From IMG/VR virus record IMGVR_UViG_2740892230_000034: DNA of 24,793 nucleotides; one strand, 5' to 3'. Below are positions 1 through 1,654 of this stretch, in pieces. How positions within the stretch are numbered: position 1 is the first letter of the stretch; each line of letters opens with the position of its first letter. Below the pieces are notes generated by a model that was given only the letters and a program-made list of their open reading frames with translations, was not told where the DNA came from and searched no databases. Source of the DNA: a virus. Its lineage: Duplodnaviria; Heunggongvirae; Uroviricota; Caudoviricetes. The position numbers and the translations under genes are program-made.

Positions 1-1078
1 ATGCTCACCGTTAAGCAGATTGAAGCAGCAAAGCCGAAAGAAAAACCATACCGCCTACTCGATGGTAATGGCCTGTACCTTTATGTCCCTGTGTCAGGGA
101 AAAAGGTATGGCAGCTTCGCTACAAGATTGACGGTAAGGAGAAAATCCTGACTGTCGGAAAATATCCGCTTATGACTTTGCAGGAAGCAAGGGATAAGGC
201 ATGGACTGCGAGGAAAGACATCTCGGTTGGCATCGATCCGGTAAAAGCGAAAAAGGCTTCGTCTAACAACAATTCCTTTAGTGCGATTTACAAGGAATGG
301 TACGAGCACAAGAAGCAAGTCTGGTCAGTAGGCTATGCAACTGAACTTGCAAAAATGTTTGATGACGACATTTTACCTATCATCGGCGGCCTTGAAATTC
401 AGGATATTGAGCCGATGCAACTGCTGGAAGNNNNNNNNNNCAAAATGTTTGATGACGACATTTTACCCATCATCGGCGGTCTTGAGATTCAGGATATTGA
501 GCCGATGCAACTGCTGGAAGTAATCCGCAGATTTGAAGATCGCGGTGCAATGGAGCGAGCCAACAAAGCCCGCAGAAGATGCGGCGAGGTTTTTCGTTAC
601 GCTATTGTCACCGGAAGGGCTAAATATAACCCGGCACCTGACCTTGCAGACGCCATGAAAGGATACCGCAAGAAGAACTTCCCGTTCCTTCCAGCAGACC
701 AGATGCCTGCATTCAACAAAGCACTGGCAACATTTTCAGGAAGTATCGTATCGCTCATTGCCACCAAGGTTTTACGCTATACAGCCCTCAGAACAAAAGA
801 GCTTCGTTCCATGCTATGGAAGAACGTCGATTTTGAAAACAGGATTATCACCATTGACGCCAGTGTGATGAAGGGACGCAAAATTCATGTGGTCCCGATG
901 TCAGACCAGGTGGTTGAACTTCTCACTACGCTAAGCTCAATCACCAAACCAGTATCAGAGTTTGTTTTTGCCGGGCGCAACGATAAGAAGAAGCCAATCT
1001 GCGAGAACGCGGTATTGCTTGTGATCAAACAAATCGGCTATGAAGGTCTGGAAAGCGGTCACGGATTCAGGCATGAAT
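1..1078 (+). CDS. int: P4-family tyrosine integrase, N-terminal and central part (reading frame crosses an N-run and a duplicated 79-bp block; reconstructed gene about 385 aa)
   Basis: Translation starts MLTVKQIEAAKPKEKPYRLLDGNGLYLYVPVSGKKVWQLRYK, a typical P4/CP4-57-type integrase N-terminus. The frame stays open through 1078. The N-run at 431-440 is flanked by near-identical copies (352-430 and 442-520) that differ only at 3 synonymous positions. Confidence 0.8.
431..440. other. Assembly gap (10 N) inside integrase, flanked by a 79-bp duplicated block
   Basis: Literal n characters. Sequence 352-430 is repeated at 442-520 with 3 mismatches. Confidence 0.95.
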
Positions 1079-1088
1079 NNNNNNNNNN
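1079..1088. other. Assembly gap (10 N)
   Basis: Literal n characters. The integrase frame is broken here; sequence 998-1078 reappears at 1403-1483 with 3 synonymous mismatches. Confidence 0.95.
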
Positions 1089-1112
1089 TTGGCTTGATGA
1101 AAAAGTGGAGTA

Positions 1113-1322
1113 ATCCGGACCGTACTTCTTTATCCAGGCATAAAGGCTGTGGGTGGTGATATCGAGACGTGTTGCAACGCTGGCAACAGAATAACCGCGA
1201 TCAACAACCTGTTTGACTGCTTCAGTTTTAAACTCTTCGGGATAACGCTTACCGCTTATGGGCACCTCTCTTTAAGCCATCTTAAATGACTCTGAGGTGT
1301 CTGTTAAACCCGTGGCGATTCA
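1113..1322 (-). mobile_element. IS3-family insertion sequence fragment (left terminal repeat region plus first ~51 codons of the orfA transposase), truncated
   Basis: Minus-strand ORF begins at 1265 with MPISGKRYPEEFKTEAVKQVVDRGYSVASVATRLDITTHSLYAWIKKYGPD, an IS3-family OrfA helix-turn-helix N-terminus. Upstream of it on the minus strand the sequence reads TGAATCGCCACGG... (ending at 1322), an IS3-like terminus. The fragment abuts 24 nt (1089-1112) that encode an integrase-like C-terminus (WLDEKVE, stop). Confidence 0.55.
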
Positions 1323-1391
1323 AAACTGCGTGTTACGTTCGCCCTGGACTGTTGCGATCGTGAAGCCATAGACTGGGCCGCAAGCACGGGA

Positions 1392-1401
1392 NNNNNNNNN
1401 N
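1392..1401. other. Assembly gap (10 N)
   Basis: Literal n characters. Integrase sequence resumes at 1402. Confidence 0.95.
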
Positions 1402-1654
1402 GATCTGCGAGAACGCGGTGCTGCTTGTGATCAAACAAATCGGCTATGAGGGTCTGGAAAGCGGTCACGGATTCAGGCATGAATTCAGCACGATTATGAA
1501 CGAGCACGAATGGCCTGCTGACGCTATTGAAGTGCAACTGGCACATGCCAACGGCGGATCTGTGCGCGGGATTTACAACCATGCACAGTATCTCGATAAG
1601 CGCAGAGAAATGATGCAGTGGTGGGCGGACTGGCTTGATGGTTTAATAGTTTAA
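1402..1654 (+). CDS. int: P4-family tyrosine integrase, C-terminal catalytic part
   Basis: Translation ...GHGFRHEFSTIMNEHEWPADAIEVQLAHANGGSVRGIYNHAQYLDKRREMMQWWADWLDGLIV, which carries the HxxR and catalytic Tyr-region motifs of tyrosine recombinases and the P4-type MMQWWADWLD tail. Stop TAA at 1652-1654. Confidence 0.8.

What the first reader, a model, noticed from the sequence alone, without database searches (positions are those of the whole stretch)
341..1483. Integrase region is a scaffolding artefact: N-runs, diverged duplicate overlaps and an IS3-family fragment
Each N-run is flanked by ~80-bp blocks repeated on both sides that differ only at synonymous codon positions. That pattern fits reads from two closely related integrase alleles (for example two prophages in one genome) being joined imperfectly. 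Between the second and third gap lie 24 nt encoding an alternative integrase C-terminus (WLDEKVE), an IS3-family left-end fragment and 69 bp of unrelated flank. The single 370-aa ORF in the six-frame track is therefore not a real protein, and IS disruption of this integrase is not established.
Basis: seen in the sequence. Interest (0 to 1): 0.45.

Follow-up and report, generated by a model that had tools for sequence, protein, structure and literature searches.

The report
Mixed-strain assembly artefact in integrase gene
The broken, partly duplicated integrase gene is not biology: a short-read assembler wrote both versions of a gene from two different E. coli strains present in one sequencing sample one after the other, separated by placeholder Ns.

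Summary
The window has three 10-N runs (431-440, 1079-1088, 1392-1401). Diverged duplicate blocks lie at 351-430/441-520 and 996-1078/1402-1484. A 303-bp insert (1089-1391) carries IS remnants.

It is an assembly artefact. The window comes from draft scaffold CCPR01000218.1 (GCA_000752855.1). That scaffold has four more 10-N runs upstream, in the single-copy core genes fadJ, fadI and yfdF, with the same flanking duplicates.

All six overlaps follow one rule:
- The first base after the gap is a variant.
- The last variant lies exactly 34 nt before the gap.
- Overlap length equals variant span plus 34.

This is the signature of unmerged de Bruijn bubble arms at k=35.

At every overlap one arm is 100% E. 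coli 55989 and the other 100% E. coli 2013C-3264. None of 132 discriminating sites has a private base. Window 1402-24793 is 100% identical to 55989. The reads therefore most likely came from two strains, not from two prophages in one genome.

The two strains carry alternative occupants of the same argW site: intS plus a P22-like prophage, or intS plus IS remnants. Each real intS is an intact 385-aa gene. The 370-aa ORF is fictitious. Interest is low.

The parts
1..430 (+). Piece A: intS gene positions 1-430, continuous upstream with argW tRNA-Arg(CCU), yfdC and mlaA in the source scaffold. Mostly the 55989 haplotype, with a 2013C-3264-type block at 153-198, which is a haplotype switch.
351..430 (+). 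Bubble arm 1a (55989 allele, 100% identical to 55989). Ends exactly 34 nt after the last variant, at 396.
431..440 (.). N-run 1: a 10-N placeholder. The true distance between the pieces it separates is negative (an 80-bp overlap).
441..520 (+). Bubble arm 1b (2013C-3264 allele, 100% identical). Its first base, 441, is itself a variant (C vs A at 351).
441..1078 (+). Piece B: intS gene positions 351-988. It carries the second-strain haplotype at both ends and at gene positions 504-615, and 55989-type bases at gene positions 672-864. No complete genome carries it at 100% identity.
996..1078 (+). Bubble arm 2a (2013C-3264 allele). Ends 34 nt after the last variant, at gene position 954.
1079..1088 (.). 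N-run 2: a 10-N placeholder. In genomes with the IS-remnant locus, 145 bp of intS lie between the end of piece B and the start of piece C.
1089..1113 (+). Last 25 nt of the second-strain intS (…WLDEKVE*, the canonical K-12-type C-terminus). The first base (T) is the variant at gene position 1134. The AA of the TAA stop codon is contributed by the IS fragment.
1112..1322 (-). IS3-family left-end fragment: terminal inverted repeat TGAATCGCCACGGG… at 1322 and the first ~51 codons of orfA (HTH_Tnp_1). It is truncated internally at the intS stop codon.
1323..1391 (+). First 69 bp of a second IS remnant, an N-terminally truncated rve/rve_3 transposase-core pseudogene that continues for 453 bp in 2013C-3264.
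1392..1401 (.). N-run 3: a 10-N placeholder.
1402..1484 (+). Bubble arm 2b (55989 allele, 100% identical). Its first base, 1402, is a variant (G vs A at 996).
1402..1654 (+). Piece D (start): intS gene positions 906-1158 of the 55989 allele, ending WLDGLIV*. It continues without any difference from E. coli 55989 to the end of the window.
1641..1676 (+). 8-bp tandem repeat GTTTAATA, 4.5 copies. It contains the stop codon of the 55989-type intS. Copy number varies between strains.

Best explanation
The integrase region is an assembly artefact produced from reads of two E. coli strains.

Strain 1 is E. coli 55989 or a near-identical relative. It has argW, an intact intS, an O-antigen-type acyltransferase and a P22-like prophage. 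Strain 2 resembles 2013C-3264. At the same argW site it has an intact intS followed directly by IS remnants.

A de Bruijn graph assembler running at k=35 met clusters of SNPs spaced less than 35 nt apart. Each cluster forms a long 'bubble' with two arms, one per strain. These arms were not merged. The scaffolder placed both arms at the same position, one after the other. Because the estimated gap was negative, it wrote the minimum placeholder of 10 N. After a gap, each piece is written without its leading k-1 bases.

This explains every boundary. The base after a gap is the first SNP of the cluster. The piece before a gap ends 34 nt after the last SNP. Overlap length equals SNP span plus 34.

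The 303-bp insert (1089-1391) is the strain-2-specific branch that leaves the shared path at the SNP at gene position 1134. It was scaffolded between the two arms of the second bubble.

What is shown: the two haplotypes, the k-1=34 geometry, the same phenomenon in core genes, and the source scaffold.

What is inferred: that the two haplotypes sit in two different cells (a mixed or contaminated culture or library), and that the assembler was Velvet. Its manual states that gaps under 10 bp are written as 10 N; I am relying on my own knowledge for that, and it is not verified here.
For: Source. The 370-aa ORF, including its X residues, is on record once, in NCBI GCA_000752855.1 scaffold CCPR01000218.1. 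The window is record position 18067 to the end.

More gaps of the same kind. The same scaffold has four more 10-N runs, in fadJ, in fadI and at the end of yfdF, each flanked by diverged duplicates.

Geometry. All six overlaps (98, 127, 155, 94, 80 and 83 bp) have their first mismatch at offset 0 after the gap and their last mismatch exactly 34 nt before the gap. All inter-variant spacings are 33 nt or less. Overlap length equals variant span plus 34 in all six. Piece C also starts exactly on a variant, gene position 1134.

Two haplotypes. At each of the six overlaps one arm is 100% identical to 55989 and the other 100% identical to 2013C-3264. All 132 discriminating sites in the 11 kb carry one base or the other, with no private base.

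Strain 1. Window 1402-24793 is 100.0% identical to 55989 in a single alignment.

Strain 2. Piece C is 100% identical to 2013C-3264, where it directly follows an intact intS at argW.

One intS per genome. Both reference genomes have a single uninterrupted 1158-bp intS at argW. Most of the ~1,890 complete genomes with a match have one copy, with a maximum of two. None of the 19 complete genomes with intS next to the 55989-type junction gave a second match to a query that also carried the IS-remnant junction.
Against: I could not read the other scaffolds of the assembly or its reads. So the genome-wide extent of the second haplotype, which is what a strain mixture predicts, was not checked.

The 10-N run between pieces B and C stands for a real 145-bp distance in 2013C-type genomes. 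An assembler that scales gaps to estimated distance should have written more Ns. The placement of C or the gap-size rule is therefore not fully explained.

Bubble arms of 80-98 nt would normally fall within Velvet's default bubble-merging limit (my recollection: 100 bp). The identity and settings of the assembler remain uncertain.

The 55989-type arm expected for gene positions 504-615 is absent from the scaffold. I presume it was dropped as a short contig.
Confidence: 0.93

Rival explanations
1. One genome carries two intS-bearing elements, for instance a P22-like prophage integrated in tandem next to an older IS-decayed island at argW. The assembler then confused the two paralogous integrase genes.
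For: A few complete genomes do hold two intS matches (maximum of 2 places per genome). Tandem integration at a tRNA site is a known process. The IS-remnant module also occurs at a second locus, bioA-ybhB, in IAI1-type genomes.
Against: The same two haplotypes, with the same overlap geometry, occur in fadJ, fadI and yfdF. These genes lie upstream of argW and would not be duplicated by tandem integration. Strain 1 equals 55989 over 23.4 kb, and 55989 has one intS and no copy of the 303-bp segment. None of the 19 complete genomes with intS next to the 55989-type junction gave a second match to a query that also carried the IS-remnant junction.
Confidence: 0.04
2. A single clone is merodiploid for a segment of at least 10 kb running from fadJ through argW to intS. 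The second copy would have been acquired from another E. coli, for example on an F-prime-like plasmid or as a large insertion, so both haplotypes are truly in one cell.
For: The scaffold alone cannot tell two copies in one cell from two cells. The second haplotype is seen over at least 9.5 kb.
Against: No complete genome examined shows such a duplication. Sample mixing or contamination is far more common. The prophage part shows no second haplotype, which a mixture with a prophage-free second strain explains equally well.
Confidence: 0.02
3. The sequence is real as written, apart from the Ns. The integrase would have suffered internal duplications and an IS3-family insertion that disrupted it.
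For: An IS3-family end with an intact terminal inverted repeat is present.
Against: The duplicates obey an exact k-1=34 rule that is shared with gaps in unrelated genes. The IS fragment together with the 69 bp and the integrase tail is a pre-existing block found downstream of an intact intS in other genomes. The flanking pieces tile one gene without loss.
Confidence: 0.01

Closest known systems
Haplotypic duplication from unmerged de Bruijn bubble arms, as seen in short-read assemblies of heterozygous or mixed samples
   Same: Two alleles of one locus are both kept and laid down in series. The overlap length is set by k (SNP span + k-1). The consensus between gaps switches haplotype.
   Different: The organism is haploid, so the second allele most likely comes from a second strain in the sample rather than from a homologous chromosome. 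The assembler and its settings were inferred from the geometry, not read from the record.
IntS, the integrase of cryptic prophage CPS-53 (KpLE1) at argW in E. coli K-12
   Same: It sits at the same site (tRNA-Arg CCU), has the same 1158-bp/385-aa length and the same three-domain tyrosine recombinase architecture. The second-strain allele has the same C-terminus, WLDEKVE.
   Different: It differs from K-12 at 46-47 nucleotide positions. The 55989 allele has its last codons replaced (GLIV*) at the junction with the prophage's repeat and acyltransferase module. The cargo downstream also differs: a P22-like prophage or IS remnants instead of yfdGHI.
P22-like phages HK620 and Sf6 (integrase, O-antigen acyltransferase, tailspike end of the genome)
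   Same: Window 1402-24793 matches HK620, Sf6, N7 and related phages at 95-97% over 42-51% of its length. It has Head_binding tailspike, Arc and Bro-N/P22_AR_C (P22 antirepressor-type) genes.
   Different: Only about half of the length is shared with any deposited phage. The exact prophage is that of E. coli 55989.
IS3-family insertion sequences
   Same: The terminal inverted repeat starts with TG. The orfA N-terminus carries HTH_Tnp_1. It is 98-99% identical to the left end of intact copies annotated as IS3-family transposase with a programmed frameshift.
   Different: Only about 210 bp of a roughly 1.25-kb element is present. There is no right end, no orfB and no target duplication, so it is a dead remnant. 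It belongs to the other strain's locus.

Membership tests
De Bruijn bubble-arm scaffolding artefact | Overlap length equals the span of the variant cluster plus k-1, with one constant k at all gaps | tested here: met
   Six of six overlaps fit span + 34 (98, 127, 155, 94, 80 and 83 bp), and all inter-variant spacings are 33 nt or less.
De Bruijn bubble-arm scaffolding artefact | Piece boundaries fall on variants: the first base after a gap is a variant, and the piece before a gap ends k-1 nt after the last variant | tested here: met
   This holds at all six overlaps. Piece C also starts on the variant at gene position 1134.
De Bruijn bubble-arm scaffolding artefact | The phenomenon is not specific to the locus and also occurs in unrelated single-copy genes of the same assembly | tested here: met
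   Four further 10-N gaps in fadJ, fadI and yfdF within 10 kb upstream show it. Other scaffolds could not be read.
Mixed-strain (contaminated) read set | There are exactly two haplotypes, each matching a known strain, with no private alleles | tested here: met
   At each overlap one arm is 100% 55989 and the other 100% 2013C-3264. All 132 discriminating sites carry one of the two bases and none is private.
Mixed-strain (contaminated) read set | The second haplotype is present genome-wide at a constant minor fraction in the reads | not testable with these tools
   Neither the raw reads nor the other scaffolds of GCA_000752855.1 were accessible.
Tyrosine recombinase IntS (argW-site prophage integrase) | Arm-binding, central and catalytic Phage_integrase domains in one ~385-aa protein | tested here: met
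   The overlap-merged sequence scores Arm-DNA-bind_3 2.1e-25, Phage_int_M 5.9e-28 and Phage_integrase 6.9e-39. The 370-aa ORF as written is not a real protein.
Tyrosine recombinase IntS (argW-site prophage integrase) | The gene lies next to tRNA-Arg(CCU) argW | tested here: met
   tRNA-Arg with anticodon cct lies 161 bp upstream of the start codon in the source scaffold. 55989, 2013C-3264 and K-12 have the same arrangement.
IS3 family insertion sequence | A complete element: two terminal inverted repeats, orfA and orfB with a programmed frameshift, and target-site duplication | tested here: not met
   Only the left inverted repeat and about 51 codons of orfA are present. An intact relative has an 1151-bp frameshifted transposase gene.
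IS3 family insertion sequence | The integrase reading frame is interrupted by the IS | tested here: not met
   In 2013C-3264 the IS fragment begins at the stop codon of an intact 385-aa intS. 55989 has no IS there.

The most novel reading that the evidence does not exclude
Both haplotypes are in one cell. A 55989-like clone would carry a second, diverged copy of the segment from fadJ through argW to intS (at least 10 kb), acquired from a 2013C-3264-like E. coli. That would make it a natural merodiploid holding both alternative argW occupants.
Probability: 0.02. Interest if true: 0.3.

Novelty: not a real feature. Interest (0 to 1): 0.05.

Why it matters
The finding has no biological novelty. 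Its value is practical.

The deposited scaffold, and probably the whole assembly GCA_000752855.1, is a chimera of two strains. Its gene calls across 10-N runs are fictitious. Examples are the 370-aa 'integrase', the 78-aa integrase fragment, and the fadJ and fadI products. Its consensus also switches haplotype between gaps.

Pipelines that harvest proviruses or proteins from such drafts inherit these errors.

The rule 'first base after the gap is a SNP, last SNP k-1 nt before the gap' is a quick sequence-only test. It recognises this class of artefact and recovers k.

Tried and rejected
Source search by DNA pattern. I scanned viral contigs for the junction across N-run 2 and for a 110-nt stretch of piece B that spans the haplotype switch. 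Neither scan matched. The source was instead found through the exact artefactual protein.

Natural-allele test. I looked for a complete genome carrying piece A or piece B at 100% identity, which would make them natural alleles. There is none; the best are 99.1%. Whether the 55989-type block inside piece B is a real allele of strain 2 or a merged-bubble consensus stays open.

Tandem-prophage idea. I ran a combined query holding the 55989-type and the IS-remnant junctions. No genome with intS next to the 55989-type junction gave a second match. Extra matches in A11, MRE162 and NCTC9104 were not all inspected. In A11 the query's first piece overlaps a longer 8-bp repeat array at a different locus, bioA-ybhB.

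Literature. Searches for the accession and for a citable statement of Velvet's 10-N convention returned nothing relevant. The Velvet attribution therefore rests on my own recollection of its manual.

Right end of piece C. I considered testing whether 1391 lies 34 nt into a sequence repeated elsewhere in 55989. I did not run it, because the BLAST table cannot be filtered for one accession.

Full report
**1. What is in the sequence**

The window holds exactly three runs of N, each 10 long, at 431-440, 1079-1088 and 1392-1401. Block 352-430 recurs at 442-520, and block 997-1078 recurs at 1403-1484. Each pair has three mismatches. If the mismatched first base after each gap is counted, the overlaps are 80 and 83 nt with four differences each. 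All differences are synonymous.

The first pair brackets N-run 1. The second pair brackets N-runs 2 and 3 together with the 303 bp between them.

**2. What the pieces are**

I call the four pieces A (1-430), B (441-1078), C (1089-1391) and D (1402 onward).

BLAST against 5,426 complete E. coli genomes identifies the gene as intS, the prophage integrase next to tRNA-Arg argW.
- In E. coli 55989, intS is an uninterrupted 1158-bp gene. It is followed by an acyltransferase gene and a phage tailspike gene.
- In E. coli 2013C-3264, an equally intact intS sits at the same argW site. It is followed by two IS pseudogenes and an AraC-family regulator gene.

A, B and D tile a single intS at gene positions 1-430, 351-988 and 906-1158. 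Removing the overlaps gives a 385-aa protein with the three domains of a tyrosine recombinase.

D is 100% identical to 55989. The whole of 1402-24793 matches 55989 at 100.0% in one alignment, and no other complete genome covers 80% of it.

C is 100% identical to 2013C-3264. It is contiguous at 99.7% identity or better in 184 complete genomes. C consists of three parts:
- The last 25 nt of intS.
- About 210 bp of an IS3-family left end. This carries the terminal repeat TGAATCGCCACGGG at 1322 and the first ~51 orfA codons with HTH_Tnp_1.
- The first 69 bp of a second IS remnant, an rve/rve_3 transposase-core pseudogene.

The ending WLDEKVE* is the canonical IntS C-terminus, as in K-12. The 55989 allele is the one with a replaced end, WLDGLIV*.

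**3. Where the window comes from**

The 370-aa ORF, X residues included, is on record exactly once. It lies in NCBI assembly GCA_000752855.1, scaffold CCPR01000218.1 (42,860 bp). The window is that record from position 18067 to its end.

The 10 kb upstream contain fadJ, fadI, yfcZ, fadL, yfdF, mlaA, yfdC and argW. They also contain four more 10-N runs. These lie in fadJ, in fadI and at the end of yfdF. Each is flanked by diverged duplicates of 94-155 bp.

**4. The rule behind the duplicates**

All six overlaps in the scaffold behave the same way:
- The first base after the gap differs between the two copies.
- The last difference lies exactly 34 nt before the gap.
- All spacings between neighbouring differences are 33 nt or less.
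- Overlap length equals the span of the differences plus 34 (98, 127, 155, 94, 80 and 83 bp).

Piece C also begins exactly on a variant, at gene position 1134.

This is what a de Bruijn graph with k=35 produces. SNPs closer together than k fuse into one bubble. Each arm of the bubble covers the SNP span plus k-1 bases. If both arms are kept and written in series, and a node after a gap is written without its leading k-1 bases, the observed boundaries follow.

As I recall the Velvet manual, it states that any gap shorter than 10 bp is written as 10 N. I found no citable source for this in the paper library. The assembler's name is therefore an inference. The value of k is not an inference.

**5. 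Two strains rather than two prophages**

At each of the six overlaps one arm is 100% identical to 55989 and the other is 100% identical to 2013C-3264. Across the 11 kb, all 132 sites that distinguish those two genomes carry one base or the other. Not one base is private.

fadJ, fadI and yfdF are single-copy core genes upstream of argW. Tandem prophage integration cannot duplicate them. The prophage part of the window shows no second haplotype. This fits a second strain that has the IS-remnant locus at argW in place of the prophage.

None of the 19 complete genomes with intS next to the 55989-type junction gave a second match to a query that also carried the IS-remnant junction. The most likely source is therefore a mixed or contaminated culture or library: 55989 or a near-identical strain, plus a 2013C-3264-like strain.

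Between gaps the consensus switches haplotype. Examples are the 2013C-type block at 153-198 of piece A and the 55989-type block at gene positions 672-864 of piece B. This explains why no complete genome matches A or B at 100%.

**6. Loose ends**

- In 2013C-type genomes the end of B and the start of C are 145 bp apart, yet the scaffold shows 10 N. The N-runs therefore carry no distance information, or C was placed by graph adjacency rather than by read pairs.
- The 55989-type arm expected for gene positions 504-615 is missing. It was presumably dropped as a short contig.
- The other scaffolds and the reads were out of reach. A mixture of cells cannot be formally separated from a merodiploid cell. 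I give the merodiploid about 2%.

**7. Verdict**

The feature is not real biology. Each strain has an ordinary, intact 385-aa IntS. The IS fragments belong to the second strain's locus and begin at the stop codon of its intact intS, so no IS disruption exists.

The two alleles come from two strains rather than from two prophages in one genome. WLDEKVE is the canonical end of IntS. The 69-bp 'flank' is a second IS remnant. Interest is low.

Noticed in passing
window 1641-1676; L008 3969-4068: An 8-bp tandem repeat, GTTTAATA, sits directly at the end of the 55989-type intS and contains its stop codon. It has 4.5 copies here and in 55989, and 12.5 copies in E. coli A11. Differences of 8 bp in match length suggest about 5.5 copies in O104:H4 strains and 3.5 in TOK-001. 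It marks the junction where the last five integrase codons differ from K-12 IntS.
   Followed up: partly
L007 4942-5025 (IAI1) and L008 3899-3982 (A11), both next to bioA-ybhB: An 84-bp integrase 3' remnant starts at the same intS gene position (1075) in both genomes. In IAI1 it is followed by the IS-remnant and AraC module. In A11 it is followed by the repeat, acyltransferase and tailspike module. The shared breakpoint at a second chromosomal locus suggests a site-specific or recurrent recombination point near the integrase 3' end.
   Followed up: partly
window 1104-1120: In the IS-remnant allele the integrase stop codon is TAA, whereas K-12 has TGA. Comparison with an intact IS3-family copy places the junction at GTGGAGT|AATCCGG. 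The last two bases of the stop codon are therefore IS-derived, and there is a short AGTGGA microhomology at the junction.
   Followed up: yes
L003 1979-1988, 2236-2245, 2736-2745, 7426-7435 (source scaffold, upstream of the window): Four more 10-N runs with two-haplotype duplicate flanks lie in fadJ, fadI and yfdF. Gene calls there are distorted: a 750-aa and a 491-aa product, against 714 aa and 436 aa implied by the 2145-bp fadJ and 1311-bp fadI genes of 55989. The whole assembly GCA_000752855.1 is probably affected.
   Followed up: yes
window 1863-24793: The rest of the window is the left part of the P22-like prophage of E. coli 55989. It carries an Acyl_transf_3/SGNH acyltransferase, a Head_binding tailspike, Arc-type repressors, a Bro-N/P22_AR_C (P22 antirepressor-type) gene, DNA-transfer proteins, portal and terminase genes. 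It is 95-97% identical to HK620, Sf6, N7 and related phages over about half its length. The scaffold ends inside the prophage.
   Followed up: partly
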